Assembly: GCA_964406435.1 (NCBI GenBank)
Contig: CAYORY010000001.1
Location: 1 to 38,760, forward strand
DNA length: 38,760 nt
Source: an uncultured Roseivirgaceae bacterium
GTDB taxonomy: Bacteria > Bacteroidota > Bacteroidia > Cytophagales > Cyclobacteriaceae
Direction: 5' to 3'
Positions 1 to 37,162 of the stretch are shown piece after piece. The translations under genes were made by a program, and so were the position numbers. Below the pieces are notes generated by a model that worked only from the letters and a program-made list of their open reading frames with translations, ran no database searches and had not been told where the DNA came from. The number at the start of each line of letters is the position of its first letter. Position 1 is the first letter of the stretch.

Positions 1-202
1 CTACCATTCCACCAAAAGAAATTCCGATAATCACGAAGGGTTCGTTAGTGTTAATTTGTTCCGAAAATCGGATTGCATAGTCTTGAATTGTCTCGTTACG
101 TTCTGGTTCAATCCATTGCAGTGGTATTATCTCGAAATCGAGACTTAGCTCTGAAAAGACTCGTTCATCAACACCTAAGCCACCTATTCCGTATACTTTC
201 AA
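1..202 (-). CDS. alpha/beta-hydrolase fold protein, N-terminal part only (gene runs off the left edge); cassette-borne
   Basis: The minus frame is open to the window edge. From a TTG at 202-200 it reads LKVYGIGGLGVDERVFSELSLDFEIIPLQWIEPERNETIQDYAIRFSEQINTNEPFVIIGISFGGMV. GISFGG is a GxSxG nucleophile elbow. A stop codon lies immediately upstream, so the start must be non-ATG. Confidence 0.6.
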   Translation of the reverse strand, partial: MKVYGIGGLGVDERVFSELSLDFEIIPLQWIEPERNETIQDYAIRFSEQINTNEPFVIIGISFGGMV

Positions 203-224
203 AACTTGATCTGGGGATTATGAG

Positions 225-456
225 AGGTAACGACCATGTATGAGGCGTGTGCTCTCACTCAGTGGACAGCACTAAAATAGTGAAGTCTGCCGGTGCTTCC
301 AAAGTTTGTAGAAAGCAGTGCGTTCTGAAGTGAAAAAATCCCGCGAACTGATGTATCCAAACCGCACAAATCTTTCTCGGCGGCTGACTCACGGTCAAGT
401 CCTGATGTGGTTTGTAGAAAGCATGTAAGCACATGCCTTCATACATAATGTTACAG
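225..456 (-). repeat. attC-like recombination site A (232 nt)
   Basis: The arm TAACGACCATGTATGAGGC (228-246) pairs with GCCTTCATACATAATGTTA (435-453), leaving an unpaired spacer and one bulged base. The conserved module AGCACTAAAATAGTGAAGTCTGCC lies at 268-291. The site sits between two cassette ORFs. Confidence 0.75.
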
Positions 457-849
457 ACCGTTCTTCAGTTGGCCGTTTGCCTGTTGAGAAAGTTCGAGTT
501 CACCAGTTCCAGAAGCGACCAAGTTGAAAAGAGGTTCGCCAGTTAGATGTTCAGGGTACAAAATCCGAGAGTTAAAAAGAGTTGAGTTAGCCAGTTCAGG
601 TTGTAGATGACCGTTGAGTAGGCTTGAAAGTTCCGTCCAGAAAGTTGGATCGTTCGTCAAGTCGTTAGAAACCTCATAAAGTGTTCCGTTCGAGTCAATA
701 AAGACGAAAAAATAGTCGTCAACAAATGGCCCTCCTTCGATTGTGTATTCGCCGATAAGTTGAATGGACTCTAGTTCGATCGACCAAGAAGTTAGGTTGT
801 TCTCAGTTAGCTCCAGTTGTCCGTTCCGAATCTTGAGTTTTGCAGTCAT
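451..849 (-). CDS. hypothetical cytoplasmic protein (cassette cargo, about 132 aa)
   Basis: This is ORF 451..864 trimmed to MTAKLKIRNG (ATG 849-847), because the upstream codons fall inside attC-B. The stop TAA (453-451) lies inside the attC-A core GTTACAG. No recognisable motif. Confidence 0.55.
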   Translation of the reverse strand: MTAKLKIRNGQLELTENNLTSWSIELESIQLIGEYTIEGGPFVDDYFFVFIDSNGTLYEVSNDLTNDPTFWTELSSLLNGHLQPELANSTLFNSRILYPEHLTGEPLFNLVASGTGELELSQQANGQLKNGL

Positions 850-852
850 GGT

Positions 853-1087
853 CTGTAACGCCAAGCTAGCAGTTTGTGCGCCCTCGGCTTATAAAGAGCA
901 CTAAAGTAGCGAAACTGCCCAACCACCACAAAAGCCGCTACGAAGAAATGCGTTCCCCAAGATAAAGACCAGAACCACAGAAAGGGCTAGCAGCACAAAG
1001 GTCTCAGAATGGGTAGTGAAGCGGGCAATTAACCGATGAAACTTGCAGATTGCTCATTTGGCGCATAACTGCTAGCGATTGTTAGTA
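853..1087 (-). repeat. attC-like recombination site B (235 nt)
   Basis: The arm TAACGCCAAGCTAGCAGTTTGTGCGCC (856-) pairs with GGCGCATAACTGCTAGCGATTGTTA (-1084). The conserved module AGCACTAAAGTAGCGAAACTGCCC lies at 897-920. The interior closely resembles attC-D. Confidence 0.75.
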
Positions 1088-1113
1088 GCTTTATTTTCGT
1101 TTTTGTTAACCTG

Positions 1114-1605
1114 TTAGAAGATGGTCAGCACGATGGTCTCAAAAAAAGCAAAGATGTTAGCCTTCTTTGTTCGTGTACAGAGGCTGGTTGTTAAATACTC
1201 ATCTGTTTTAGTACCAAGTCGAAATAGTTCGTTAGTGAGGTATCCATAAACTAGATGAGTTGTCCCCTCATCAAACCAGTTCCCACAATCAGCCCCACCG
1301 CCGGTTGTTCTGATCTTTAAAACTTCAGAGTCCCTAAACCTGTTCTTGCCTTTCTGAATGGATTTTACTTCGAATTCAAATTCGTAAATGTTATAGTCAA
1401 TATTACGAGTCTCGCCAGTTCCAGTCGTATATGATTCAGTAGTTGGGTATTCGGTGATTTTCGTAACAGTTCCCCGAAAAACAATGTCTGAATGTTTTTG
1501 AGCTTTGAAAATCCCAACTCGTCCGCAAGAACAAGCCATCACCTCAGTTGTTCCGATGAGGAGAAAAATTAGTAAAGTCAGAAGAGTTCTCTGCGTGAAG
1601 GTCAT
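1114..1605 (-). CDS. secreted TIMP/NTR-like protein (cassette cargo, about 163 aa)
   Basis: This is ORF 1114..1656 trimmed to MTFTQRTLLTLLIFLLIGTTEVMA|CSCG, because the upstream codons lie in attC-C. The signal peptide has a VMA cleavage motif that would expose an N-terminal Cys-x-Cys. The following sequence, CSCGRVGIFKAQKHSDIVFRGTV, resembles the N-terminus of mature TIMP-2 as recalled from memory ([24 protein letters not shown]). Confidence 0.55.
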   Translation of the reverse strand: MTFTQRTLLTLLIFLLIGTTEVMACSCGRVGIFKAQKHSDIVFRGTVTKITEYPTTESYTTGTGETRNIDYNIYEFEFEVKSIQKGKNRFRDSEVLKIRTTGGGADCGNWFDEGTTHLVYGYLTNELFRLGTKTDEYLTTSLCTRTKKANIFAFFETIVLTIF

Positions 1606-1608
1606 TGC

Positions 1609-1843
1609 TACTAACGACCAGCTATCGGGCGTATGTCCGCAGCTAGTGAATAGCACTAAAGTAGTGAAATCTGCCGAAGCTCACAACGGTTCCAAATGGC
1701 ATTGCGTTCTGAAAATTAAAACTCCTGCGCTCAAAAGCTGGTAGAAAGCACCGCCGTATCTCAGCGGCAGATATCACGGTCGAGTTGCACTGAAACCATC
1801 CAGAATGCACTGAGACATATGCCCGATCAGCATTTTGTTAGCA
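1609..1843 (-). repeat. attC-like recombination site C (235 nt)
   Basis: The arm TAACGACCAGCTATCGGGCGTATGTC (1612-1637) pairs with GACATATGCCCGATCAGCATTTTGTTA (1814-1840). There is an inner pairing of GTGAAATCTGCCG with CGGCAGATATCAC. The conserved module lies at 1652-1675. Confidence 0.8.
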
Positions 1844-1846
1844 TCT

Positions 1847-2494
1847 TTATTTTAGTCGATAAGAAGCGGAAAATTGAAATGTTCTATTCTGAAATTTCGG
1901 GTTGTTATCACTCGATATTGGGTTACCGAATTCATCCGTTAACTGCGGTGCGCTAATGACAGATGTGAAGCCGTGAGTGTATCTCATTTCAAGCATTAGA
2001 TTATCACTCAGAGAATAGCTTAACCCAGCAGACAGACCAAAATCAAAATTATTATCAAAGTTTTCTTTAACATCAATTGTTTCAGAATCGAACTTTGACT
2101 TTGCAGATAATAAATACCCAAATTCCGGTCCAGCTAAAAATGAAAGTTTGTCAATGACTTTATAACTCACGAGCACTGGAAAATTTATGTAGTTCAGATG
2201 TATAGATCCATCTCCTGAAGGTTGAGCACCTTGAATTCCTTCGGATGAATAGCCCTTATTTGAAAAAAGTAATTCCGGCCTTATTGCAAAATTGTCTGAG
2301 AGTTTAATTTGTCCAAAAAGACCAGCATGATATCCCAACCTGTATTTGTTATCGCTATTACTTCCATCAGGAGTATTATCGACCACATTGTTGACATAGT
2401 TAACTCCTGCCTTGATACCAAACTGTGTTTGCGCTTGAGTATATTCAAAACTGGAGACAAGGATAAGCAATAGTATTGTGGCTCTATTTTTCAT
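1847..2494 (-). CDS. outer-membrane beta-barrel (porin-family / OMP_b-brl_2-like) protein (cassette cargo)
   Basis: Signal peptide MKNRATILLLILVSSFEYTQAQ. The body shows alternating hydrophobic beta-strand patterns (FGIKAGVNY, GYHAGLFGQ, RPELLFSNKG). It ends in an aromatic-rich terminal strand (FSASYRLK). Confidence 0.65.
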   Translation of the reverse strand: MKNRATILLLILVSSFEYTQAQTQFGIKAGVNYVNNVVDNTPDGSNSDNKYRLGYHAGLFGQIKLSDNFAIRPELLFSNKGYSSEGIQGAQPSGDGSIHLNYINFPVLVSYKVIDKLSFLAGPEFGYLLSAKSKFDSETIDVKENFDNNFDFGLSAGLSYSLSDNLMLEMRYTHGFTSVISAPQLTDEFGNPISSDNNPKFQNRTFQFSASYRLK

Positions 2495-2515
2495 TACTTC
2501 GTTTGGTTTTATTGA

Positions 2516-2747
2516 TGCTAACGACCAGCTATGCGCCGTGTGTCCACAGCTGCTAGATCATGATAAAGATAGCGGAACTGCCCAACACCGATGAAGTGTC
2601 TACGAAGAAATGCGTTCCACAAGTCTAAGTCCAGAAGTAAAGAAGGAGGGGCGGGAGATGAAATATCAGAATGGGCGGTGTAGCGGGCGAGTCCCGATGC
2701 ACTTTCAGAAAGCACTATGACACATGGCGGATGAGCGTCTGTTAGAT
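2516..2747 (-). repeat. attC-like recombination site D (232 nt)
   Basis: The arm TAACGACCAGCTATGCGCCG (2519-) pairs with the CGGATGAGCGTCTGTTA end at 2744. A degenerate conserved module, ATGATAAAGATAGCGGAACTGCCC, lies at 2560-2583. The stop codon of the upstream cassette ORF (2744-2742) lies inside the GTTAGAT core. Confidence 0.75.
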
Positions 2748-3272
2748 GCTTTTAATTATGTGTTTTAATTCGTTCAGAAGTTCGTTCTCCTGTTCAGTTG
2801 GTTCAAGATAGCTTCCCTCAAGTCGAAATAGGTTGATCTTGTGTTCGGAGGTTAGACGCAGTTGAATGCTGTGAATGTATTCTTGAGAAGTTGGTTTAGT
2901 TGCAGTTGCATATTCATCAAAAAATTTCGAATGAAAGCCGATTTCTTTAATGTCCTCAAAACGTCTTGCCATTCTACCCCAGCGTTCTTCGATTGATTCA
3001 AATTTTCGATCTTTTAAGTTCAGAGTTAGGCTAGATTTCCCAGCAGTCTTAGATCCGGTTTTCAGCGTTATTATTATAACACCTATTAGAACAAGAATTC
3101 CCAAAATCAGAGAGAATGCCATTAGAAATAGAGATGGAAAAATCATGAAAACACCAAAAATTATGATCAAATAGCGGTTAGTGTTCGAATGCTTAATAGT
3201 AATCAGCTCCTCGGTCTGTTCAACCTTGTAGCCATTGTCGTTGAGAAGTTCGATAGAAGGTTTACTAAACAT
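2742..3272 (-). CDS. hypothetical membrane protein with a hydrophobic hairpin (2 TM) and a soluble C-terminal domain (cassette cargo)
   Basis: 176-aa ORF starting MFSKPSIELL. It has a long hydrophobic stretch, LIIIFGVFMIFPSLFLMAFSLILGILVLIGVIIITL. No family motif recognised. Confidence 0.55.
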   Translation of the reverse strand: MFSKPSIELLNDNGYKVEQTEELITIKHSNTNRYLIIIFGVFMIFPSLFLMAFSLILGILVLIGVIIITLKTGSKTAGKSSLTLNLKDRKFESIEERWGRMARRFEDIKEIGFHSKFFDEYATATKPTSQEYIHSIQLRLTSEHKINLFRLEGSYLEPTEQENELLNELKHIIKSI

Positions 3273-3289
3273 GCGGTAGTCAAAATTGC

Positions 3290-3421
3290 ATCTAACGGTC
3301 TCGTGTATGAGCAGTAGCGGATTTCAAGCCACATAACTGTCAGGTAGCACCGGCCTTTGATTAATAGTTTTAAGTTTCAAAATAGCACTGAACCCGCTAT
3401 TGCTTATACACAATGTTGTAT
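3290..3421 (-). repeat. attC-like recombination site E (132 nt; attC of the 5.2-kb cassette)
   Basis: The arm TAACGGTCTCGTGTATGAGCAGTAGCGG (3293-) pairs with CCGCTATTGCTTATACACAATGTTG (-3418). The length is classical for an attC. Its outer core, AATGTTGTATGCC (3412-3424), is the exact reverse complement of 8516-8528. Confidence 0.8.
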
Positions 3422-3542
3422 GCCCGTGCTTTTTCATTTTCTTTTTTGTCAGCGTTGGGGCAGCCGTACTCTTTGGCAAGTTTTGGCTTGTGTGGCTGCT
3501 TTGAGCGACTTGCCAATGTGTATGGATGCTTGCGGTTGCCAT

Positions 3543-6500
3543 TTAGTATCGTTCCAAGAATCTCCGTTGTCTTTCCCAGTCACCACTTTTTAAACAGCTT
3601 TCTATTCGCTCATTCAAATATTTCTTAATCGGGAGTAGTTTTATTCCCATTTGAGACTTATTGACTATAGCGAGAATATTTCGCCAGTCAGCTGCCTCAA
3701 TGTCTGCAAGTATTACATCCCCTGTTCCACTCGTTCCACTTCCTCTCCACATGATTTTGGAAAAAACCCCAACTTCCTGATTTATGGAAAGAAACAGCAA
3801 TAGCATTTCTTCAAATACTTCCTTCATTGAATGTCTTGCGATGTCCACAGCAACATTTACTTTTTGATGATCACTGTTGTTTGCTCGTACAAACTGAAAT
3901 AGAAAGTCCTTTGCCTTTTCCTTTGAATCTTCTGGTATATTTCTAAAGAAGGAGTTACAGAAGTGGTCGAGAATTCCGAAGTATGGTTCTCGCTCAATTA
4001 CTAAATCAAACACTTCAGTCAACACTGGTTCAATGCCATCTACTTGCCAAACAAATCCTAATCTTCTGTGATCTCCCGATAATCCAAATTTTCTTTCTGA
4101 GAATAAACTTTCTACGTATTCCATTAAGAACTGAGGGTCTTGCTTTAGAATGTTGAACATTCCTTTCCCTTCATAGTCAAAGTGGTTGTGAATCTTATCT
4201 TGTTGGATATACGCTTTCTTGATTAGGTCAATGTTATCCCCCAATTTGTCAAAATGAGTGCTGAAAAAGTCCATCCAAACCTGCAAGCCTGTGCCGTTCT
4301 CATTTTTCTCTACAATTTTTCTCAGAACAACTTGAAACAGGTTGGGTTCAATTGATAGAAACCGTTGCAGCCTGTCAAAATGGACTGTGTTCGAACCACT
4401 CATATTGCTTACCGTGTTCACTATAGCGTCAACGTAGCCCTTAGTCAGCAATGAATCCTCCAAATAATCGTAGAACGATAGCTCCCAATGAGCTTTAAGA
4501 TTGAAATCTTTACTTTGGATTATTGCCCAAATGTGCTCTGAAGATTCTGCAGTTTTCAGATGGTTTCGAAATACAACTCTCGGAATGTAATTTATTGTGT
4601 TATCAATTGCGATAACCTGATTTAATAGTTCACAGCCCAAATGAAAATCAAGACTGCAATTTTCGTCAATCACGAAATCAAGTGAATTATTATAATTCCA
4701 TTCATTCTTAGCTTTCTCCTTCAAGAACGTGAAAACTTTGATGAATTCTTCTACCTCAGTCCTTGTTTTGAAAACAAACGAAGTTCTTATTTCAGCTTCC
4801 TTCAGTCTTTCGTACTCTCGATAATCTTCGTATTCGTACATTTCCTTATCACGCAATATATCCCAATCAATTTTTAAATAGGTTTCGTAATCTGCATTGG
4901 TAAATGACTCTGCTAATGATGAAAATGAAGGGTGCAAAACAGAGTTCCTCTTACACCATCTTATCTGTTCGTGAACATACCTACAGTGTTCGAAATTATC
5001 GGGTGATAAATGCCTTTCAATTATGTCAATAACGTAAGGAACATCAAATTCCATTACCTCCCTAAGCACGTCTGGACTTACACTGGCATAACTCTGAAGG
5101 AGGCTGAAAGACTCGGCAGGAGAGTTGTTGAAGTCGTTTGCTACCGACACCCAAATATTTTTTCGGAACTCCTGGATTTCTTGACTATTTGGAATGGGAT
5201 ACTCATACCAATAAAACGAGTGATTGCGGCCTCCTTTTGTGTGTCGGAATTTGAAGGATAAAAATGTTTTAGATAATTCATAAAAAATAGAGGCACAGAG
5301 GTTGTCCTTTTTGTTTAAACCATCCAATAGTATTTGAAACAAAATTGACTGTCTTGCAAATCTGAACCTCTCATCATCTCTGTCAAACAGAAGCTGCTCA
5401 CGAATTTTGTGAATCAGTTCCGGTACATGCTCCGGCTTTTTCCGTACATATTCAATAGCCAATTCTAATGCATCGTTTAGATTGTTTGGAAATCGAAAAA
5501 ACTCTCCAAGCAACTCAATGACTTTATTCTTTTCATATGAAAAAGCATTGTTCTCATAAGTCACCTCAAAGCTTTCAGAAGTGGCATTTTCTAATGATTC
5601 TATAATGCCATAAATAAACGCCAATGATTCAGTTGACAGATAATACCAAAAAGCCGACAGAAATTTGAACCCTTTTTCTTCGTCATTCTTGATAGACTTC
5701 CAATGGTTTTGCAGATGTGGACGCAGTTTGTCCATTACTTTTTGCACTCCAAACGTGTTGTTTGCCGGAATCACACAATCTTTGAAGCGACTACTGTTGC
5801 TATCAAAATATTTACTCAGCAATACTTCAAATGAAAGTAGATTGTCCTTGATGAATGCCTTATAGAAGAAATAGGTTGATAAATTTTGCTCAGGAATTTT
5901 CACATGTTCAAACTGTATTTCAACCAATTCCAGTTTGTCTAGTTTATCTATAGCATCTATAAAGTGTGCATAGTCAATTTCAAAATTGTCAAGTATGGAG
6001 GTCACTAATTCCTTGTTCTTGTATGGGATGGTATAGAAGAATGCAATCAGACCAAGGCAGTTAATATTCAAGTCTTTCGCAAACTCCCCATCATCCTTGA
6101 TAAACGTTGAGAAGTAGTTTTCAAATAAATCTGATACATCTGCCAAGGCATATATATTCTGTTCAGCCTTTGCAAGTAGGGCAGTCATTATTGCCAATCG
6201 CGGATTTCCATCCGCAATGCGAACAATTTCATTGTGATAATCCTGATTTAGAATTTCGAAAGGCGTTGCCTTAACAATATCCGTAATCTGCTCATCTGAG
6301 AACTTGGATAAGTCTATTCTTTTGGGCGAAAATTCTTGACATAGTATTCCAATATCTTGGAACGCATAGTCTCTGACTGTAATCAGAATCTTTAACTTGC
6401 CTTTTTGGGTTGCTCTATAAAAAGTTGTTATTTGATTGAAAGCATCAATCCTATTTGCATCATCAACGAAAAGTATATGGTCCTTTTCGGAATCGAAATA

Positions 6501-7265
6501 CTGAAACAAATCATCGAGTAGTGTATGATGCTTATACGAAACACAATAAGCATCAAATTCATTGTTCTCCGCAAGGAATGCTTTTATCGCTTCGAGAGCT
6601 AATTTGGTTTTGCCAATTCCTGGCGCACCAGTCAGAATAATAAAATCATTCTGATGTATTGATTCGTTGAGGGTCTTGAGTTCTTCTTCCCGATGCAGGA
6701 ACGTATTATCAAGAGGGGTAGAGATGCCCGCGGATGCCTTGTTGTATTCTGCAATGAATTTTTCTATTGAAACAATTTGTCCAGTGTCTAATGGTAACCC
6801 CAAATACTCGTGGGTTAAATCCCTATGGTTCAAATGGAGTTCTATTGCCAACCAATCCAGATTGTAAATAGTAAGTACAATTCGGGTGTTAGCCAAAAGG
6901 TCATTTAACGCTTTTGTTTCCTTTGCTTTAGGATTGAAATTGACACAAAGAATAATCTCGGCTATTTGATTTACAGGAATGCCAGTCTTCGATTCATTGA
7001 GGCACTTTTGTACATCTTTTTTTAACTTGGAGAATCCATCTGAAACATTTGTAGAATGTTCAACGAAAATGAACTTACCATTTGGAAGAAGCAAAAAGGT
7101 ATCGGGAGTACCAGGTACAGTTTTCTGTTTGCCACTTTGGCTCCCGGCTCTTACTAAAGCCGAATAGTTACTATTCCTCAAAGCAAGAAAACTATCGCAT
7201 AACTCTTGGAAAGCAGCCGAGTTAATTGCTTTTAAAGCTTCTTCTATTGATTGTAGTCTACTCAC
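3543..7265 (-). CDS. STAND-class P-loop NTPase with a nuclease-like N-terminal domain and a long helical C-terminal domain (Avs/NLR-like candidate defence protein)
   Basis: 1240-aa ORF. Walker A is LTGAPGIGKTKLA (GAPGIGKT = nt 6606-6629). Walker B is HILFVDDANR (aa 263-272). A GxP-type motif, ADGNPRLAIM (GNPRLA = nt 6192-6209), resembles the NB-ARC GLPLA motif. The N-terminal about 170 aa contain PGTPDTF...FIFVEHST, reminiscent of PD-(D/E)xK nucleases. The C-terminal about 850 aa are helix-rich, with no catalytic motif seen. Confidence 0.85.
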   Translation of the reverse strand: MSRLQSIEEALKAINSAAFQELCDSFLALRNSNYSALVRAGSQSGKQKTVPGTPDTFLLLPNGKFIFVEHSTNVSDGFSKLKKDVQKCLNESKTGIPVNQIAEIILCVNFNPKAKETKALNDLLANTRIVLTIYNLDWLAIELHLNHRDLTHEYLGLPLDTGQIVSIEKFIAEYNKASAGISTPLDNTFLHREEELKTLNESIHQNDFIILTGAPGIGKTKLALEAIKAFLAENNEFDAYCVSYKHHTLLDDLFQYFDSEKDHILFVDDANRIDAFNQITTFYRATQKGKLKILITVRDYAFQDIGILCQEFSPKRIDLSKFSDEQITDIVKATPFEILNQDYHNEIVRIADGNPRLAIMTALLAKAEQNIYALADVSDLFENYFSTFIKDDGEFAKDLNINCLGLIAFFYTIPYKNKELVTSILDNFEIDYAHFIDAIDKLDKLELVEIQFEHVKIPEQNLSTYFFYKAFIKDNLLSFEVLLSKYFDSNSSRFKDCVIPANNTFGVQKVMDKLRPHLQNHWKSIKNDEEKGFKFLSAFWYYLSTESLAFIYGIIESLENATSESFEVTYENNAFSYEKNKVIELLGEFFRFPNNLNDALELAIEYVRKKPEHVPELIHKIREQLLFDRDDERFRFARQSILFQILLDGLNKKDNLCASIFYELSKTFLSFKFRHTKGGRNHSFYWYEYPIPNSQEIQEFRKNIWVSVANDFNNSPAESFSLLQSYASVSPDVLREVMEFDVPYVIDIIERHLSPDNFEHCRYVHEQIRWCKRNSVLHPSFSSLAESFTNADYETYLKIDWDILRDKEMYEYEDYREYERLKEAEIRTSFVFKTRTEVEEFIKVFTFLKEKAKNEWNYNNSLDFVIDENCSLDFHLGCELLNQVIAIDNTINYIPRVVFRNHLKTAESSEHIWAIIQSKDFNLKAHWELSFYDYLEDSLLTKGYVDAIVNTVSNMSGSNTVHFDRLQRFLSIEPNLFQVVLRKIVEKNENGTGLQVWMDFFSTHFDKLGDNIDLIKKAYIQQDKIHNHFDYEGKGMFNILKQDPQFLMEYVESLFSERKFGLSGDHRRLGFVWQVDGIEPVLTEVFDLVIEREPYFGILDHFCNSFFRNIPEDSKEKAKDFLFQFVRANNSDHQKVNVAVDIARHSMKEVFEEMLLLFLSINQEVGVFSKIMWRGSGTSGTGDVILADIEAADWRNILAIVNKSQMGIKLLPIKKYLNERIESCLKSGDWERQRRFLERY

Positions 7266-7272
7266 GATGATT

Positions 7273-7989
7273 TTAAATAAGCTTGTTAAGTTCGATTTTT
7301 AGCGAGTCCTTGAGTGTTTTTGAATCGGAATAGATTAAGAATCTTTGAGATTGGATATCAATAGGCAGATCTTTAGGTTCCTTTGAAATTAGTATGACTG
7401 ATTTGTCCAGTGCTTGAGCCACCCCAAGCTCATATAAGACATTAGGATTCCTTCCATTAATGTTAGCTATTATGATTCTTGCCTTGACCATATACCTAAG
7501 CATTTCAGGGAATATATCACCCTTAAACTCTTGTTCATCTCCTCTGATGCAATTAAACCCTGCACTTGAACAAACCTCCTTGATGGTCATAAACTCATTA
7601 TAAAATTGGCTATTAAAAGGAGTTAAGACAAAAACCAATCTGTTATCGATTTTAAGTTCATTCTCAGATATTCCATTTGCCTGAAGAAATTCGGAATAAT
7701 GAATTCTTCGATTAGTGCCCAAAGACTGATTATTTTCAAGATATTCCTGTCGTAGTAAAAGATGATTAACATCCCTCCATCGTTCTTCATTTTGCACTAA
7801 TCTGTCATTTAGTCCATACATTTTTTGCTCAAGAGAATGCCTTATGCTTTCAAGCATGGCCTTATTTTCTTCGCTATCATATCTGCTTTTCTTGAGATTG
7901 GAGTACAAAATGAAAGCTATTACACTAACGGAAATGCTTGCAATTGCTGTTATGATTATCGTAATGCTGCTAATTTCCATTTGACTCAT
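7273..7989 (-). CDS. membrane-anchored protein with a C-terminal nucleoside 2-deoxyribosyltransferase-like / TIR-like domain
   Basis: This is ORF 7273..8028; the likely start is MSQMEISS (ATG 7989-7987) or MEISS (7980). It has one N-terminal TM helix (ITIIITAIASISVSVIAFILY) and a coiled-coil linker. The domain (aa 129-240) reads VFVLTPFNSQ...KARIIIANINGRNPNVLYELGVAQALDKSVILISKE...LPIDI. The NVxYExG motif, with Glu at nt 7429-7431, is typical of that fold. Confidence 0.75.
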   Translation of the reverse strand: MSQMEISSITIIITAIASISVSVIAFILYSNLKKSRYDSEENKAMLESIRHSLEQKMYGLNDRLVQNEERWRDVNHLLLRQEYLENNQSLGTNRRIHYSEFLQANGISENELKIDNRLVFVLTPFNSQFYNEFMTIKEVCSSAGFNCIRGDEQEFKGDIFPEMLRYMVKARIIIANINGRNPNVLYELGVAQALDKSVILISKEPKDLPIDIQSQRFLIYSDSKTLKDSLKIELNKLI

Positions 7990-8392
7990 TTTTTGGTTCG
8001 ATATTCTCAATTTGGGCTTTTTCTTCACTATTCAACAGAATATCCATTGATTGTATTAAGGAGAAAATTGATATTGCCATATTCAAACAAAGTAGAAGCA
8101 CCCAGTAGTTGCTTTTATTTTCAAATAGCTTTAAACTTTTTCGCCACAAAATCACAACTACAACGGCCAGAACGATAAAAGCAATCGTGTAGAATAGCCC
8201 CGCACTCGGGTCTTTAGGTTCAGATATAGTAAATGCAATTAGAAATGATATAGAAAGGAAAATCATGTCAACCGGCAGTTCGCATATTGCCTGAATTAAA
8301 TTGGGAACCTCAATGTTTCTGTCAATCGCCAGTTTCAGAACGAATGCTAATACAAGCAATGTCAGGGGTAATATTATTTCCAAATGTTCCAT
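7970..8392 (-). CDS. small integral membrane protein (about 4 TM), first gene of the three-gene cassette operon
   Basis: 140-aa ORF starting MEHLEIILPLTLLVLAFVLKLAI. Four hydrophobic segments are followed by an acidic/polar tail. Its stop overlaps the start region of the next gene, which suggests translational coupling. Confidence 0.6.
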   Translation of the reverse strand: MEHLEIILPLTLLVLAFVLKLAIDRNIEVPNLIQAICELPVDMIFLSISFLIAFTISEPKDPSAGLFYTIAFIVLAVVVVILWRKSLKLFENKSNYWVLLLCLNMAISIFSLIQSMDILLNSEEKAQIENIEPKNESNGN

Positions 8393-8518
8393 TTATCTCA
8401 TTTCAGTTATTCTGTCGAGCGTTGGCAAAAAAATAGCTCTTTTGGTTTTTCTTGCGTTGGCTCTGCGTGTCTGCAAAAACCAAATGTGCTATTTGTGCGG
8501 TCGGCTTTTTTGCATGGC

Positions 8519-8758
8519 ATACAACATTAATATAACGCGCACAGTGCGCGTTATTTCCATTTCATATTTTCGAGTGGTTACAGACCTATCTTTCTGATAG
8601 TCAGTGATAAATCCAAGTAATAAACGTTTGTAAGCGTTTATTGTCGGATATAAGCGCCACTCTCCCCACCAAGATAGCACCTATTCATGAATGACGGGGT
8701 GGTCGAGAACCTTTCGTATACCTAGGCGTCACTGAGCGTTTCGCCCCCATCGTTAACT
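8519..8758 (-). repeat. attC-like recombination site F (240 nt; outermost site of the array)
   Basis: The ends are ATACAAC (8519-8525) and GTTAACT (8752-8758). The right half is homologous to attC-A/C: GGTCGAG at 8701-8707 versus 1778-1784, CACTGAG at 8730-8736 versus 1808-1814, and a CGCCC..CGTTA end. It contains a perfect 11-bp-stem palindrome, ATAACGCGCAC-A-GTGCGCGTTAT, at 8532-8554. It is more diverged than A-E. Confidence 0.6.
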
Positions 8759-14055: not shown

Positions 14056-14841
14056 CTACTTCTCGGCCCGATAGATTATTTCTTCTTCGGGAAGAGCATA
14101 TTTTTTCACCTCTTCCGCATCGAGCTCAAAGACCAGTCTGTCTTCTACGACCTGAAAACCTGTGCTGCGGATTCTATCGGCATAGTCCTTTCCATAAAGC
14201 CGCACGTGATCGTCCTGCCCAAATAATCGCTCTCTTTCCTTCGGATCGGTAATGGTAGGATCTTCGGTAGTCTCGTCATTAAGTGGGTAGAAGAGGGGAA
14301 TCTGTAGAATAGCCCACCCTCCAGGTTTCAGCACCCGTCTCATTTCTTCCATCGCACGGATGTCGCTTTCCACATGCTCCAGCACGTGATTGCAGAAAAT
14401 GATATCGAAAGTATTCTCCTCGAATGGGATGTCATGAATGTCCATTTTCACTTTGGCCAGCGGCGACTCTATGTCCCCTGTGATGTAATCAAGGTTGTTC
14501 AATGCCTCAAACCTATCCATGAAGCAAAGCTCCGGTGCTATGTGTAGCATCTTGGCTGGTTTAGTGAAGAAATCCGTCTTTTGCTTCAGGTAAAGCCAAA
14601 TGAGTCTGTGACGTTCTAGGGCTAGGCAATTGGGACAAAGGGCATTGCTTCGGGATTTCCGACCGTAAGGAAGAAACTTACGAAATCGCGACTCGCACAC
14701 CGGACATTCGACCTTATTGCCTCGATAGAAAACAGCTAATATTTTCAGCACAAAATGACTGAAAAGCTGGAGGTACTTTCGAGGGATATGTCGTAAGAAA
14801 AAGGAAATTAAAAATTTCAACTGAAGGAATTTCAGGGTCAA
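14056..14841 (-). CDS. class I SAM-dependent methyltransferase with an N-terminal Zn-ribbon
   Basis: CPVCESRF...CPNC forms a Cys4 ribbon. DIIFCNHVLEHV and LKPGGWAILQIP match Methyltransf_11-type motifs. The start is non-ATG (TTG) in the ORF track, so it is uncertain. Confidence 0.75.
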   Translation of the reverse strand: MTLKFLQLKFLISFFLRHIPRKYLQLFSHFVLKILAVFYRGNKVECPVCESRFRKFLPYGRKSRSNALCPNCLALERHRLIWLYLKQKTDFFTKPAKMLHIAPELCFMDRFEALNNLDYITGDIESPLAKVKMDIHDIPFEENTFDIIFCNHVLEHVESDIRAMEEMRRVLKPGGWAILQIPLFYPLNDETTEDPTITDPKERERLFGQDDHVRLYGKDYADRIRSTGFQVVEDRLVFELDAEEVKKYALPEEEIIYRAEK

Positions 14842-14880
14842 AGTTATTCAAGATAGGAGCAAACCCCTATTTTTAGACTC

Positions 14881-15273: not shown

Positions 15274-15276
15274 TAT

Positions 15277-15495
<219 letters not shown>

Positions 15496-15507
<12 letters not shown>

Positions 15508-15909
15508 TTCCTTTCGCCACATAAATTTCAACCCTGACCAGTCGTGATCTACTGCGCATACTTTGGTATCGACCAACCCGCCCTTCAGACCAAGTTCTCG
15601 AACCTTATTACCATTCAATTCAGTAGCAAGGGCTGACGTTTGCTTCGGCCAAGAAAACCAAAGCATTCCGGTCTTTTTCAGATTCTTTTTCCAACTAGCC
15701 CAACCCTCAGTAATGTGTTTTTCATCCGTCACAAATATGTGGATGAAGTCGAAAGGTCCTTCATTAACGTTATCGGTAAATTCTGAACCCGAAGGAATTT
15801 CTTCTAGTAAATCAACGTAATGAGAAGGTTCATTTACTATCAGACATTTGAAGTTTTCCTTGATGCCTAGCTTCTTGATGAGTGGATTTGGGGAATATCC
15901 TGCGGGCAT
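15496..15909 (-). CDS. DUF3052-like protein
   Basis: 137-aa ORF. The N-terminus GYSPNPLIKKLGIKENFKCLIVNEP and the WFSWPKQTS motif match what I recall of DUF3052-family proteins. Confidence 0.6.
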
Positions 15910-28758: not shown

Positions 28759-30196
28759 ATGAAGACTATTGACGATTTTTCCTTTGCCGACAAGAAAGCC
28801 CTCATCCGCGTTGACTTCAACGTGCCTCTCAACGAGAACTTTGAAGTGACTGATCAAACGAGATTGAAAGCCGCAGTTCCAACTATTCTTAAAATCTTGG
28901 CTGATGGAGGAAATCCAATCTTAATGAGCCATTTGGGCCGACCAAAAGGCGGTCCTGAGGATCGATATTCATTGAGACACGTCATTCCTGCGTTGAGCGA
29001 TTTGCTGGCAACCAATGTGAAATTTGCCAATGACTGTGTGGGCGATGTGGCGGTGGAGATGGCTGCCGGATTAGAAGAAGGAGATGTGTTGCTTTTGGAG
29101 AATGTTCGATTCTATAGTGAAGAGGAAAAAGGGGACGAAGGATTTGCTAAAAAGCTTGCCAGGCTTGGAGACATCTACGTGAATGACGCATTCGGAACGG
29201 CGCACCGTGCACACGCTTCCACGACTATCGTAGCAAAGCATTTCACTGACAAATGCTGCGGCTATGTGATGAGAAATGAGCTTGAGAATGCAAAGAAAGT
29301 GCTCGGTGGAGCTGGCTGCCGGATTAGAAGAAGGAGATGTGTTGCTTTTGGAGAATGTTCGATTCTATAGTGAAGAGGAAAAAGGGGACGAAGGATTTGC
29401 TAAAAAGCTTGCCAGGCTTGGAGACATCTACGTGAATGACGCATTCGGAACGGCGCACCGTGCACACGCTTCCACGACTATCGTAGCAAAGCATTTCACT
29501 GACAAATGCTGCGGCTATGTGATGAGAAATGAGCTTGAGAATGCAAAGAAAGTGCTCGGTGGAGCAGAGAAGCCTTTCACGGCAATAATGGGTGGTGCTA
29601 AGATTTCTGACAAGATTTTGATCATCGAGAAGTTGCTCGATAACGTGGACAACCTGATCATTGGAGGAGGAATGTCCTACACGTTTTCTAAGGCCAAAGG
29701 AGGCCAAATCGGCGATTCCCTTTTGGAAGCGGACAAGATGGAATTGACCAAAGAAATTGAGAAGAAAGCGGCTGAAAAAGGCGTGAAATTGTTCTTGCCT
29801 GTGGACACTGTAATTGCTGATGATTTCAACAAAGACGCTAAAACAGATACCGTAAAAGCAGGTGAAATTCCTGATAACTGGCAGGGTCTGGACATTGGTC
29901 CTGAGACGGTGAAACTTTTCGCTTCAGTGATCGAAGGTTCTAAAACTATTCTTTGGAATGGCCCGATGGGTGTATTCGAATTCCCTGCATTTGCCAAGGG
30001 AACGGATGCCATCGCTGAGTCCGTTGTGAAAGCAACCAAGGCAGGTGGATTCTCCCTTATCGGAGGAGGTGATTCCGCCTCTGCGATCAATAACCTCGGC
30101 TATGGCGATGACGTGAGCTACGTTTCCACCGGAGGAGGTGCTTTGCTTGAGTACATGGAGGGCAAGGTGCTGCCAGGAGTTGCGGCGCTAGACTAA
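28759..30196 (+). pseudogene. pgk: phosphoglycerate kinase interrupted by a perfect 253-bp internal tandem duplication (frameshift), or an assembly artefact
   Basis: ORFs 28759..29370 and 29276..30196 are both PGK. The first reads RVDFNVPL...MSHLGRPKG...[14 protein letters not shown]. The second reads GGAKISDKI...GGGMSYTF...WNGPMGVFE...GGGDS. Removing one 253-bp copy restores a single 394-aa ORF. Confidence 0.9.
29060..29565 (+). repeat. Perfect direct tandem duplication, 2 x 253 bp (29060-29312 and 29313-29565)
   Basis: The two copies appear identical base for base when read side by side. GGTGGAG lies just 5' of copy 1 (29052-29058) and near the end of each copy (29305-29311, 29558-29564). 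Confidence 0.95.
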
Positions 30197-35726: not shown

Positions 35727-37133
35727 CTAGGGATTCGCTTTAAGCAAAATTACATTCTCCACATGTTGCGTGTGAGGGAACATATCCACGGGTTGGATTT
35801 GTTCCACCGTGAAAGCCTCAGAAAGCAGCTCTATATCCCGTGCCTGAGTAGCTGGATTGCAGCTCACATAGACAATTCTTTCGGGGCGGATACGAACCAA
35901 TGTTTCTACTACATCCTCATGCATGCCCGCTCGCGGGGGGTCGGTGATGATTACGTCAGGTTGACCGTGCTTCTTCACAAAAGCATCATTGAGAACGTCC
36001 TTCATGTCTCCCGCAAAGAAGCTGGTGTTTGAGATGCCATTGATTGCTGAATTCACTTTGGCGTCTTCGATCGCTTCTGGGACATATTCTACCCCCACCA
36101 CTTTTTTGGCTTTTCCTGCCACATAGTTGGCGATGGTGCCCGTGCCGGTGTAGAGGTCGTAGACAGTTTCCTCGCCTGTGAGTTGAGCCATCTCAGCGGC
36201 TACTTGATATAGCTGCTCGGCTTGTTTGGAGTTGGTTTGATAGAAGGATTTGGGCCCGATGCGGAAAGTCAAAGCGCCCATTTTCTCTTGGATGTAAGGG
36301 GTGCCGCTCACACAAACTACCTCCTGATCGAAGATTGTTTCGTTCTTCTTTTCGTTGATGATGTAGTTCAATGAAGTGATTTCAGGGAATTCAGTCTTGA
36401 GAAATTCCATGATGCCGTCTATCGCTTTTTGATCAGGCTCAAAGACCTGAAGCATGACCATTGTTTCACCTGTGGAAGTTGTACGGATGATCAGATTTCT
36501 CAGAAAACCATGTTGCTCGCGGATGTCGAAAAAAGTGAGATTGTTTTTTAGTGCATATTCCCTAACAGCATTTCGGATGGAGTTGGACGGTTCGGCTTGA
36601 TGGTAACAGTTTTTAATGTCCAGCACTTTATCGAACATCCGAGGAATGTGGAACCCAAGCCCGTTTCTATTTAAGTCACCCTCCGAGCCAATTTCTTCTT
36701 TGGTCAACCATCGCTTGTTTGAAAAAGTGTACTCTAGTTTATTCCTGTAGAAGCGTGTTTCCTCCGAACCCAGAATTGGGTTGATTTTTGGGAGATTCAG
36801 ACCACTGATCTTGGTCAGGTTTTCCTCTACGTGATCTTGCTTGAATTTGAGCTGACCTTCATACGAAAGGTGCTGCCACTTGCAGCCGCCACATGTCCCA
36901 AAATGCTCGCAGAAAGGTTCGCTCCTGTGCTCCGATGCTTTAACGAGGTTAGTGATTTTGCCTTCAAGGAATCGTCTTCGCTTGTAAGTGATTTCGACTT
37001 CCGCCACGTCACCAGGCACGCCTTCCTTTACAAAAACGACGATACCGTCATGCCTCCCTACACTTTTTCCATCAGCCGAAATTCCTGTGATTTCTAACGA
37101 CGATATGATGTCTCCTTTATTCATGCGGCGCAA
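35727..37133 (-). CDS. rlmD: 23S rRNA (uracil-C5)-methyltransferase RlmD/RumA family
   Basis: It has an N-terminal TRAM domain and a 4Fe-4S Cys cluster (CEHFGTCGGCKWQH). The SAM-binding motifs are DLYTGTGTI and IITDPPRAGMH, and the catalytic motif is VSCNPAT. Confidence 0.9.
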   Translation of the reverse strand: MRRMNKGDIISSLEITGISADGKSVGRHDGIVVFVKEGVPGDVAEVEITYKRRRFLEGKITNLVKASEHRSEPFCEHFGTCGGCKWQHLSYEGQLKFKQDHVEENLTKISGLNLPKINPILGSEETRFYRNKLEYTFSNKRWLTKEEIGSEGDLNRNGLGFHIPRMFDKVLDIKNCYHQAEPSNSIRNAVREYALKNNLTFFDIREQHGFLRNLIIRTTSTGETMVMLQVFEPDQKAIDGIMEFLKTEFPEITSLNYIINEKKNETIFDQEVVCVSGTPYIQEKMGALTFRIGPKSFYQTNSKQAEQLYQVAAEMAQLTGEETVYDLYTGTGTIANYVAGKAKKVVGVEYVPEAIEDAKVNSAINGISNTSFFAGDMKDVLNDAFVKKHGQPDVIITDPPRAGMHEDVVETLVRIRPERIVYVSCNPATQARDIELLSEAFTVEQIQPVDMFPHTQHVENVILLKANP

Positions 37134-37162
37134 AGGTATTTTAAATCCTCTACGTCATGGCG

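What the first reader, a model, noticed from the sequence alone, without database searches (positions are those of the whole stretch)
225..2747. attC-like sites are 232-240 nt long and share a conserved internal module, outside the size range normally searched
Site lengths measured core to core are A 232, B 235, C 235, D 232 and F 240 nt. Only E (132 nt) falls in the classical 57-141-nt range.
Sites A-C carry a near-identical 24-nt module, AGCACTAAA(A/G)TAG(T/C)GAA(A/G)(T/C)CTGCC, which starts 40-41 nt after the TAAC (268-291, 897-920, 1652-1675). Site D has a degenerate copy at 2560-2583.
The interiors fall into two sub-families. B and D share ..CTACGAAGAAATGCGTTCC..CAGAATGGG..AGCGGGC... A and C (and the right half of F) share ..TGCGTTCTGAA..CACGGTC(G/A)AG...
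Default integron detectors with a length cap near 200 nt would probably miss this array.
On the cassette-sense strand the module reads ..TA(C/T)TTTAG.. in A-C (TATCTTTA in D). That is one mismatch from the Bacteroidota -7 box TAnnTTTG, and it lies about 50-70 nt upstream of the next cassette's start codon. A speculative role is an attC-embedded promoter that frees cassettes from dependence on Pc. The module could equally be an integrase or host-factor binding or folding element.
Basis: partly seen in the sequence, partly recalled or inferred. Interest (0 to 1): 0.65.

Follow-up and report, generated by a model that had tools for sequence, protein, structure and literature searches.

The report
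Long cassette recombination sites in Bacteroidota
The 232-235-base repeats are real integron-style cassette recombination sites, about twice the usual length, and they belong to a cassette-array system common in Bacteroidota whose neighbouring recombinase lacks the domain that defines integron integrases.

Summary
Sites A-D (232, 235, 235, 232 nt) and E (132 nt) sit exactly where stated, and A-D share the module. "Site F" is mis-delimited. What lies there is an attI-like insertion site at 8523-8554.

About 170 homologous ~240-nt sites occur in co-oriented arrays in Cytophagales genomes. In an alignment of 119 copies, the terminal stems and one internal 8-bp helix covary strongly.

The 6-7 nt before each site's AAC pair (~90%) with the 7 nt after GTT of the upstream site, but only 25-40% with the adjacent GTT flank. 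So cassettes are discrete mobile units that cross over within GTT, as in integrons.

No recombinase is in the window. In related loci the array starts 20-40 nt after a XerA-like tyrosine recombinase. This has 32-35% identity to IntI1 and an intact catalytic set, but lacks the IntI-specific domain. A divergent zinc-ribbon gene accompanies it.

The module has two halves. CGGCAGAT is one arm of the covarying helix, so it is a folding element. CACTAYTTTAGTG together with an invariant TTG 19-20 nt upstream is promoter-like and faces the next cassette. It is never a perfect TAnnTTTG, and its function is untested.

The parts
225..456 (-). Long attC-type site A (232 nt). It closes the cassette with ORF 451-849/864.
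   Evidence: Fold. nhmmer E=3.5e-63. Its R'' flank GGTCTGT+AAC is complementary to the leader after GTT of site B (sequence; rule).
853..1087 (-). Long attC-type site B (235 nt).
   Evidence: Fold. nhmmer E=1.6e-39. Complementary to its own leader, found after site C's GTT, at 6 of 7 positions.
1609..1843 (-). Long attC-type site C (235 nt).
   Evidence: Fold. nhmmer E=1.5e-63. Complementary to its own leader, found after site D's GTT, at 6 of 7 positions.
2516..2747 (-). Long attC-type site D (232 nt).
   Evidence: Fold. nhmmer E=3.1e-38. Complementary to its own leader, found after site E's GTT, at 6 of 7 positions.
3290..3421 (-). Short attC-type site E (132 nt), from a different sequence family. 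It closes the 5.2-kb first cassette.
   Evidence: Fold. Its R'' flank GGCATAC+AAC is complementary at 7 of 7 positions to GTT+GTATGCC at the attI-like junction 8516-8525.
8523..8554 (-). attI-like insertion site at the head of the array. It consists of palindrome 8532-8554 (ATAACGCGCA/TGCGCGTTAT), spacer 8526-8531 and GTT 8523-8525. No recombinase gene lies next to it in this window.
   Evidence: The same layout (palindrome, 5-6 nt, GTTR) lies just 3' of the recombinase stop codon in L074, L078, L083, L058 and about 20 further loci. The leader rule links it to site E.
1652..1675 (-). Conserved module in site C. Copies also lie at 268-291 (A), 897-919 (B) and 2560-2583 (D, degenerate).
1669..1676 (-). 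3' arm of the covarying internal helix in site C (CGGCAGAT on the minus strand). It is the 'CTGCC' end of the module and pairs with 1765-1772.
   Evidence: Alignment columns 88-95 and 197-204. Seven of 8 pairs show changes on both sides, and 89.9% of cells are paired.
1765..1772 (-). 5' arm of the internal helix in site C (ATCTGCCG on the minus strand).
1656..1686 (-). Promoter-like element in site C, read on the minus strand: TTG (1686-1684), 20 nt, then TACTTTAG (1663-1656). It points to the next ORF, whose ATG is at 1595. The equivalents are 272-302 in A and 901-931 in B. D has TATCTTTA (2564-2571) but no TTG.
   Evidence: The TTG and the TT of the box are invariant or nearly so. 99 of 119 family members carry TTG-N19/20-(TAnnTTTG with one mismatch), found in 101 members on the top strand against 2 on the bottom strand.
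306..423 (-). Central expansion of site A. It is bounded by a 14-nt direct repeat: GTTTGTAGAAAGCA on the plus strand at 306-319 and 410-423.
   Evidence: Short relatives such as L110 and L029 equal the long form minus this interval.
3296..8524 (-). Cassette 1 (5,229 nt). It carries a 140-aa membrane protein (7970-8392), a 251-aa TIR-like protein (7273-8028) and a 1240-aa nSTAND3 NTPase (3543-7265).
   Evidence: Pfam, PADLOC, and boundaries from the leader rule.
231..3295 (-). Cassettes 2-5, with one ORF each: 2742-3272; 1847-2494 (outer-membrane beta-barrel protein); 1114-1595/1656; 451-849/864. A sixth cassette runs off the start of the window.
   Evidence: Stop codons abut R'', and start codons lie 5-25 nt after R'.

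Best explanation
What it is. A-D are cassette-associated, structure-specific recombination sites: attC-type sites of a long (~240 nt) family specific to Cytophagales. They belong to an integron-like cassette system that is widespread in Bacteroidota.

How each site is built. On the gene-sense (minus) strand a site reads (N6-7)AAC, a 4-nt spacer, a ~17-bp L stem, the interior, the L stem, a 5-nt spacer, then GTT.

Which strand folds. An invariant A.C mismatch in the L stem becomes a G.T wobble on the plus strand. A frequent one-base bulge adds to the asymmetry. I infer from this that the plus (bottom) strand is the one that folds and recombines.

Where exchange occurs. Exchange happens within GTT, so each cassette carries its own TT+leader together with its downstream site. 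This step is shown by comparative sequence analysis.

The window's array. It starts at an attI-like hairpin site (8523-8554) and has no recombinase of its own. It is a recombinase-less array that depends on an enzyme supplied in trans, or is now inactive.

The likely enzyme. In relatives the enzyme encoded right at that site is a XerA-like tyrosine recombinase without the IntI-specific domain. It is partnered by a small zinc-ribbon (treble-clef, DUF2116-like) protein. That this enzyme does the recombination is inferred from conserved position only.

The extra length. It comes from a ~110-nt central segment that has become part of the structure. I infer that this folds the centre into a side branch and brings the recombination arms together.

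The rest of the module. TTG-N19/20-TAnnTT(A/T)(G/A) is conserved as sequence, not as structure, and on one strand only. My tentative reading is a weak Bacteroidota-type promoter that reads into the next cassette (about 35% likely). Otherwise it is a protein-binding site.
For: 1. Family and arrays. There are 176 nhmmer hits, mostly full length, in Marinoscillum, Ekhidna, Reichenbachiella, Fulvivirga, Marivirga and Cyclobacteriaceae. Every locus has all its copies in one orientation. In 61 of 62 inter-site segments the dominant ORF lies on the site's top strand. Median ORF length is 177 aa, the stop codon abuts the next site, and the ATG lies about 16 nt after the previous one.

2. Structure. 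89.6% of cells are paired, against 31-42% when partners are slid. 609 cells show changes on both sides, against 192+-14 in shuffles (0 of 500 shuffles reach the observed value).

3. Crossover. The base before AAC correlates with the base after GTT of the upstream site (odds ratio 90, p=1e-6). With the adjacent GTT the correlation is weak (odds ratio 2.9, p=0.04). Flank positions 1-6 are Watson-Crick complementary in 87-93% of cases with the cassette's own leader; with the adjacent flank, positions 2-6 pair in 25-40% and position 1 in 73%. All five window sites obey the rule, including E with the attI-like junction.

4. Strand asymmetry. A34.C249 is present in 117 of 119 copies. Spacers are 4 and 5 nt in 116 of 119.

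5. Recombinase in relatives. It lies immediately upstream of the first cassette in L078, L083, L058 and L074, survives as a remnant in L039, and is divergent in L004. It scores 217-232 bits on NF040815, but only about 200 bits (cut-off 265) on the integron-integrase model TIGR02249, with profile positions 179-241 missing. The alignment shows gaps of 31 and 11 aa where the IntI domain lies, while the catalytic residues R, K, H, R, H and Y are kept.

6. Wider platform. Homologues at 55-62% identity in Flavobacteriia and Cytophagia are all followed by palindrome+spacer+GTTR. Walking from leader to R'' recovers arrays of up to 6 cassettes. This works for 9 of 20 loci, against 2.65% with random leaders. 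The zinc-ribbon gene is adjacent in 46 of 80 loci.

7. Module. The helix half covaries. The small CACTA/TAGTG hairpin does not: 80.7% paired, and changes break it. The promoter-like element is present in 99 of 119 copies and is strand-specific. The host does use TAnnTTTG upstream of genes.
Against: - No recombination or transcription was measured. Everything here is comparative.
- The window holds no recombinase, no remnant of one and no accessory gene. Many related arrays or solo sites also lack one nearby.
- The L083-type recombinase loci I fetched contain no ~240-nt sites. The link between the long family and this recombinase rests on six loci.
- Classical work holds the IntI-specific domain to be necessary for attC recombination (Messier and Roy 2001, as cited in PMC9668308). 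A domain-less enzyme doing this job would therefore be unexpected.
- None of the 119 -7-like boxes is a perfect TAnnTTTG. Site D lacks the TTG.
- Several other conserved interior islands are unexplained: GACCG, GCAGGA-T run, ACGCAGTGC, and AGTGC repeated at five alignment columns.
Confidence: 0.72

Rival explanations
1. This is an ordinary integron array lacking its integrase (a CALIN). A canonical IntI carrying the additional domain, encoded elsewhere in the genome, does the recombination. The XerA-like recombinase next to related arrays is a bystander or serves another element.
For: The window has no recombinase. Many related copies have several kb of upstream sequence without one. CALINs are common in integron-bearing genomes (PMC9024848).
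Against: In about 20 loci the recombinase stop codon is 20-40 nt from the junction at which the first cassette's leader begins. That leader matches the first cassette's own R''. tblastn with IntI1 found no domain-bearing IntI in the 118 loci from the module-pattern scan. Surveys found almost no IntI in Bacteroidetes (PMC9024848).
Confidence: 0.12
2. The internal module and the centre serve only recombination, through folding or through binding of the recombinase or an accessory protein. The resemblance to a promoter is coincidental.
For: Half of the module is a covarying helix. No box is a perfect TAnnTTTG. AGTGC(TTTCT) recurs at five columns on one strand, as arm-type binding sites would. Other conserved islands have no promoter reading.
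Against: The two best-conserved interior elements are exactly TTG and the TT of a TAnnTT box, at the canonical 19-20-nt spacing. They occur on the strand that faces the next ORF (101 members against 2). Two sub-families keep TAnnTT in different registers even though the local hairpin is lost.
Confidence: 0.45
3. The repeats are MITE- or REP-like intergenic elements, or ordinary short attCs that each received an unrelated mobile insertion, with no role as long recombination sites.
For: Short (~125 nt) relatives lack the central ~110 nt. In A-type sites the centre is bounded by a 14-nt direct repeat.
Against: The centre pairs with the flanking module through a covarying helix. It is conserved across genera as part of the whole unit. 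Copies sit only behind ORFs, in one orientation. The leader rule shows exchange at the outer cores.
Confidence: 0.04

Closest known systems
Integron attC sites, especially the long homogeneous families of sedentary chromosomal integrons (for example Vibrio VCRs of about 120-130 nt)
   Same: Imperfect palindrome with AAC/GTT cores, an unpaired spacer and an L stem. One ORF per cassette. Co-oriented arrays. Crossover within GTT. High similarity within a lineage.
   Different: The sites are 232-235 nt, against the classical range of 57-141 nt. Strand asymmetry comes from an invariant A.C / G.T position plus an optional bulge, not the canonical pair of extrahelical bases. The interior is conserved and partly structured across genera.
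Integron platform (intI-attI-Pc), including the 'inverted' Treponema type in which intI and the cassettes point the same way (the Treponema orientation is from my own knowledge, not checked here)
   Same: A tyrosine recombinase 32-35% identical to IntI1 lies next to the cassette insertion point. Cassettes accumulate downstream of it.
   Different: The recombinase lacks the IntI-specific domain and scores as XerA-like. Its 3' end usually abuts the insertion site. The attI-like site is a perfect hairpin, then 5-6 nt, then GTT. A conserved divergent zinc-ribbon gene accompanies it.
CALIN (cluster of attC sites lacking an integron integrase)
   Same: The window holds at least 5 sites and no recombinase.
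   Different: The array still has an intact attI-like head. The sites are longer than the 200-nt default cap of IntegronFinder (the default value is from my own knowledge; the option itself is shown in PMC13616975).
Outward-facing promoters of group IIC-attC introns (PMC3001079)
   Same: A promoter located at an attC site that can drive the downstream cassette independently of Pc.
   Different: Here the candidate promoter is part of the site itself, not of an inserted intron. It is also unproven.
IS1111-attC insertion sequences (PMC11187229)
   Same: In related loci an IS110-family element sits exactly at G|TT of these sites, in several copies per genome.
   Different: It targets this Bacteroidota site family. 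It is not present in the window.

Membership tests
attC site (integron cassette recombination site) | Imperfect inverted repeats R''-L'' / L'-R' with conserved AAC and GTT cores, able to fold as a single-strand hairpin | tested here: met
   Folds. Covariation: R, L and internal helices, 89.6% of cells paired, 0 of 500 shuffles reach the observed value.
attC site (integron cassette recombination site) | Cassette boundary and crossover inside GTT (G|TT), so that the bases after GTT belong to the next cassette | tested here: met
   Own-leader complementarity is 87-93% (flank positions 1-6), against 25-40% for the adjacent flank (positions 2-6). Odds ratio 90, p=1e-6. The rule holds for all five window sites.
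attC site (integron cassette recombination site) | Follows a single, usually promoterless ORF; sites and ORFs co-oriented in arrays | tested here: met
   61 of 62 ORFs are co-oriented. No locus has mixed orientation.
attC site (integron cassette recombination site) | Unpaired central spacer and extrahelical bases that mark the recombining bottom strand | tested here: inconclusive
   A 4/5-nt spacer is present in 116 of 119 copies. About 40% have one bulged base on the L'' arm. An invariant A.C (G.T on the other strand) is present in 117 of 119. This is not the canonical two-base pattern.
attC site (integron cassette recombination site) | Length within the classical 57-141 nt | tested here: not met
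   A-D are 232-235 nt. The family mode is about 240 nt. E (132 nt) is within range.
attC site (integron cassette recombination site) | Recombined by an integron integrase | not testable with these tools
   This needs an in vivo or in vitro assay.
Integron (intI + attI + Pc) | Tyrosine recombinase carrying the IntI-specific additional domain | tested here: not met
   There is none in the window. In related loci TIGR02249 scores about 200 bits, below the 265 cut-off, with profile positions 179-241 absent. Gaps of 31 and 11 aa are seen against IntI1.
Integron (intI + attI + Pc) | attI insertion site next to the recombinase gene | tested here: met
   This is met in relatives. In the window the attI-like site (8523-8554) stands alone.
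Integron (intI + attI + Pc) | Pc promoter reading into the array | not tested
   No promoter was mapped. In co-directional platforms read-through from the recombinase gene is possible.
CALIN | Two or more attC sites with no integrase nearby | tested here: met
   Five sites are present. There is no recombinase anywhere in the 38.8 kb.
Bacteroidota housekeeping promoter (-33 TTG / -7 TAnnTTTG) | TTG, then 19-21 nt, then TAnnTTTG (consensus and spacing from my own knowledge of the Bacteroides and Flavobacterium promoter literature, not checked in a paper here) | tested here: inconclusive
   TTG and the 19/20-nt spacing are present in 99 of 119 copies. The box always carries one mismatch (TAnnTTAG or TAnnTTTA), and none is perfect.
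Bacteroidota housekeeping promoter (-33 TTG / -7 TAnnTTTG) | A transcription start a few nt downstream of the box | not testable with these tools
   No transcript data are available.
MITE / REP element | Dispersed copies in varied contexts and orientations, with terminal inverted repeats and target duplications | tested here: not met
   Copies occur only behind ORFs, in one orientation per locus. Their flanks obey the cassette leader rule.

The most novel reading that the evidence does not exclude
Bacteroidota (Flavobacteriia and Cytophagia) carry a widespread cassette-capture system that works like an integron and has so far been overlooked. It is run by a XerA-like tyrosine recombinase without the IntI-specific domain, together with a small zinc-ribbon partner. 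It uses a hairpin-type attI at the 3' end of the recombinase gene. In Cytophagales its recombination sites have doubled in length and carry their own promoter, so that every stored cassette is expressed independently of a Pc promoter.
Probability: 0.4. Interest if true: 0.9.

Novelty: new variant of a known kind. Interest (0 to 1): 0.8.

Why it matters
- Integrons are defined by IntI and its extra domain, and surveys report them as nearly absent from Bacteroidetes. These arrays behave like integron arrays at the sequence level, including the crossover position. Yet they sit next to a recombinase without that domain, and their sites exceed the length that default detectors accept.
- If the recombinase assignment holds, the domain thought necessary for hairpin-site recombination is dispensable or has been replaced. 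A large reservoir of mobile cassettes in marine Bacteroidota has then been missed. That reservoir includes a defence-like NTPase/TIR cassette in this window.
- If the embedded promoter is real, it would change the cost-and-expression logic of stored cassettes.
- Cultured strains carry the family, so all of this can be tested directly. Examples are Marinoscillum furvescens DSM 4134, M. luteum KCTC 23939, Reichenbachiella agariperforans DSM 26134 and Ekhidna sp. To15.

Tried and rejected
- Rfam scan of the window: no family matched.
- Peptide encoded in the interior: stop-free stretches are barely longer than in shuffles, and the frames and peptides are inconsistent between copies. Rejected.
- Small hairpin CACTA/TAGTG as the reason the module is conserved: there is no covariation and changes break it. 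Rejected in favour of sequence-level conservation.
- Site F as a sixth long site: there is no profile hit and one 'core' lies inside an ORF. It is re-interpreted as flanking the attI-like site.
- G|ATATCTATGAT ends as a primordial attI half: they are the end of an IS110-family element inserted at G|TT. In UBA6059 the array continues beyond the IS (coordinates).
- Plain repeat search downstream of flavobacterial recombinases: no arrays were seen. The leader-to-R'' walk did recover them.
- Sigma-70 promoter and terminator scan of 1-3500: nothing above shuffles.
- Looking for the source contig: an exact 33-mer was absent from genome and metagenome contigs, and the exact protein was not on record. 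The organism is unidentified beyond Cytophagales-like Bacteroidota.
- My first regex for TAnnTTTA gave zero window hits, because the box is TAnnTTAG. This was corrected.
- One literature query timed out. The others found no description of this system.


Full report
**Observation.** I re-read bases 1-6000 and re-measured every site from core to core. A is 225-456 (232 nt), B 853-1087 (235), C 1609-1843 (235), D 2516-2747 (232) and E 3290-3421 (132). The 24-nt module is exact at 268-291 and 1652-1675. B carries it with a 1-nt deletion, and chance expectation is zero. The A/C and B/D sub-families show up as direct repeats and in the four-site alignment, which has 71% column identity. All genes in this region lie on the minus strand. 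Each stop codon overlaps or abuts the xxTAAC end of a site, and the next start codon lies 5-25 nt beyond the GTTAxxx end. As single strands, the two ends of each site pair with each other.

**The family elsewhere.** About 70 of them carry the repeat (73 sources with profile hits, the window included), nearly all Cytophagales: Marinoscillum, Ekhidna, Reichenbachiella, Fulvivirga, Marivirga, and Cyclobacteriaceae and Flammeovirgaceae MAGs. A profile built from A-D found 176 hits there, most of them full length, with E-values down to 1e-59 and several per 8-kb locus. Within every locus all copies have the same orientation. In 61 of 62 inter-site segments the dominant ORF is on the same strand as the site's top strand. 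The median ORF is 177 aa, the stop codon abuts the next site, and the ATG lies about 16 nt after the previous one. This is integron cassette architecture.

**Structure.** I aligned 119 full-length copies (A2). RNAalifold and my own scan of column pairs picked out the same helices. These are the AAC/GTT box, a ~17-bp L stem in three segments, and one internal 8-bp helix (columns 88-95 with 197-204; ATCTGCCG with CGGCAGAT). Counting the named structure gave 89.6% paired cells, against 31-42% when partners were slid. It gave 609 cells with changes on both sides, against 192+-14 in shuffles (0 of 500), and a covariation score of 0.423 against 0.178. By contrast the small hairpin CACTA/TAGTG inside the module does not covary: 80.7% of cells are paired, and departures break the pairing.

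The L stem contains an invariant A.C mismatch on the gene-sense strand (117 of 119 copies). On the complementary strand this is a G.T wobble. The spacers are 4 and 5 nt in 116 of 119 copies, and about 40% of copies have one bulged base on the 5' arm. The plus strand of the window should therefore fold better, and it plays the role of the integron 'bottom' strand. That assignment is an inference.

**Where exchange happens.** If cassettes move as in integrons, the bases after GTT belong to the next cassette, and they should pair with that cassette's own downstream site rather than with the site they touch. That is what is seen. The base before AAC matches the base after GTT of the upstream site with an odds ratio of 90 (p=1e-6), against 2.9 (p=0.04) for the adjacent GTT. 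Over flank positions 1-6, Watson-Crick complementarity to the cassette's own leader is 87-93%; for the adjacent flank it is 25-40% at positions 2-6 (73% at position 1).

All window sites obey the rule:
- A: GGTCTGT-AAC with GTT-ACAGACC after B.
- B with C, C with D and D with E: 6 of 7 positions each.
- E: GGCATAC-AAC with GTT-GTATGCC at 8516-8525, 7 of 7 positions.

The cassettes are discrete units that exchange within GTT.

**The head of the array, and 'site F'.** The partner of E lies in a structure at 8523-8554 on the minus strand. It is a perfect palindrome (ATAACGCGCA / TGCGCGTTAT), a 6-nt spacer and GTT. The same layout occurs immediately after the stop codon of a tyrosine recombinase in L074, L078, L083 and L058 and in about 20 further loci. 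I therefore read it as an attI-like insertion site. It is not a member of the family.

Cassette 1 is thus 5.2 kb (8524 down to 3296). It encodes a small membrane protein, a TIR-like protein and a 1240-aa nSTAND3 NTPase, so its content looks like an anti-phage defence system.

**The recombinase.** The window has none, and no remnant of one. tblastn with it found 30-33% identical proteins directly upstream of the first cassette in several long-site arrays. One array has a 38-aa remnant (L039), and one has the gene in divergent orientation (L004).

These proteins score 217-232 bits on NF040815 (XerA-type, cut-off 220). They score only about 200 bits on the integron-integrase model TIGR02249 (cut-off 265), in two pieces that skip profile positions 179-241. 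An alignment with IntI1 shows that all catalytic residues are kept, with gaps of 31 and 11 residues exactly where the IntI-specific domain lies. That domain defines IntI and is reported as necessary for activity (Messier and Roy 2001, as cited in PMC9668308). Membership in the integron family in the strict sense is therefore tested and not met.

**The platform across Bacteroidota.** Homologues of the Ekhidna recombinase (55-62% identity) are found in many Flavobacteriia and Cytophagia. All are followed by palindrome+spacer+GTTR, and many contigs break just beyond that point. A divergent ~140-aa zinc-ribbon (DUF2116-like) gene lies directly upstream in 46 of 80 loci, including all 42 of the best-matching ones.

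Plain repeat search saw no arrays there. Walking from each leader to its complementary R'' recovered chains of up to six cassettes, with sites mostly 120-126 nt long (range 60-282). The first step succeeded in 9 of 20 loci, against 2.65% with random leaders. The ~240-nt family is therefore a long Cytophagales variant within a broader system that has ordinary site lengths.

**Origin of the extra length.** Some relatives are only 122-128 nt long and equal the long form minus its central ~110 nt. In A-type sites the centre is bounded by a 14-nt direct repeat, at plus-strand 306-319 and 410-423 in site A. Long and short forms can therefore interconvert by duplication or deletion. The centre is not an unrelated insertion. 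It is conserved across genera, and it supplies one arm of the covarying helix whose other arm lies in the module that the short forms also carry.

**The promoter idea.** After weighting the sequences, the best-conserved unpaired interior positions include TTG (columns 187-189) and the TT of TAnTTTA. In 99 of 119 sites the motif TTG-N19/20-(TAnnTTTG with exactly one mismatch) sits at this place. It occurs in 101 family members on the gene-sense strand against 2 on the other. It ends about 38 nt before GTT and about 60 nt before the next ATG. Two sub-families keep TAnnTT in different registers even though the local hairpin is lost. The host does place TAnnTTTG upstream of genes.

Against the idea, no box is perfect and D lacks the TTG. 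Other conserved islands have no promoter explanation: GACCG, GCAGGA plus a T run, ACGCAGTGC, and AGTGC at five columns on one strand. I put the promoter reading at about 35%; protein binding is the alternative. A known precedent for promoters located at attC sites is the outward-facing promoter of group IIC-attC introns (PMC3001079).

**Literature.** Full-text searches found no description of long attC sites, of Bacteroidota cassette arrays of this kind, or of attC-embedded Bacteroidota promoters. The IntegronFinder 2.0 paper reports only In0 elements and one Salinibacter integron for Bacteroidetes (PMC9024848). The attC size cap is a user option, and one study raised it to 300 (PMC13616975). 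The default of 200 is from my own knowledge.

**Verdict.** What is new is the size and the structured interior of the sites. Beyond the finding's own coordinates, the arrays are also linked to a recombinase that fails the defining IntI test. I rate this a new variant of a known kind, with high interest. The enzyme assignment and the promoter remain inferences that ordinary experiments can settle.

Noticed in passing
window 3296-8524 (minus strand): The first cassette is unusually large (5.2 kb). It carries a 1240-aa nSTAND3 NTPase, a TIR-like 251-aa protein and a 140-aa membrane protein, which looks like an anti-phage defence system stored as a cassette.
   Followed up: partly
L004:598-1638 and the ends of L039, L025, L031, L077 and L105: An IS110-family insertion sequence (346-aa transposase with DEDD_Tnp_IS110 and Transposase_20 domains) is inserted exactly at G|TT of the long sites. 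There are at least 5 copies in Marinoscillum sp. MHG1-6. It is a Bacteroidota counterpart of IS1111-attC. In UBA6059 the array continues on the far side of the IS.
   Followed up: partly
L083:2151-2567, L078:2714-3139 and about 44 further loci (positions ~9500-9900 of L119-L160): A conserved ~140-aa zinc-ribbon (DUF2116-like, CxxC) gene lies divergently, right upstream of the recombinase. It is a likely accessory factor of the platform.
   Followed up: partly
window 29051-29556: A perfect 253-bp tandem duplication inside the phosphoglycerate kinase gene splits it into two overlapping ORFs (28759-29370 and 29276-30196). It could be an assembly artefact or a very recent duplication.
   Followed up: no
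window 15274-15526: A block of short tandem repeats in an intergenic region: TTATTGG-type units with 15-nt spacing, then CCTAAAA/CCTAATC units with 7/14/21-nt spacing.
   Followed up: no
window 8578-8587 (minus strand): The 10-mer GGTCTGTAAC, identical to the R'' end of site A, lies about 25 nt upstream of the attI-like palindrome, where relatives have the recombinase 3' end. It could be chance (about 0.07 expected) or a scar of the event that removed the recombinase.
   Followed up: no
window 8400-8526 and 3440-3470; L132 after 11177: The leader of cassette 1 carries A/T runs next to a GCCAACGC motif. A similar ~130-nt leader follows the attI-like site of an unrelated Crocinitomicaceae MAG. 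Function unknown.
   Followed up: no
window 14839-14846 and 37131-37138 (minus strand): Two TTG 'start codons' in the mechanical ORF list are the last bases of perfect TAnnTTTG boxes. These are probably promoters, with the true start codons further downstream.
   Followed up: no
L004:3604-4431 versus L078, L083 and L058: The platform occurs in two layouts. In most loci the recombinase points the same way as the cassettes, with its 3' end at the insertion site. In UBA6059 it is divergent, as in classical integrons.
   Followed up: no
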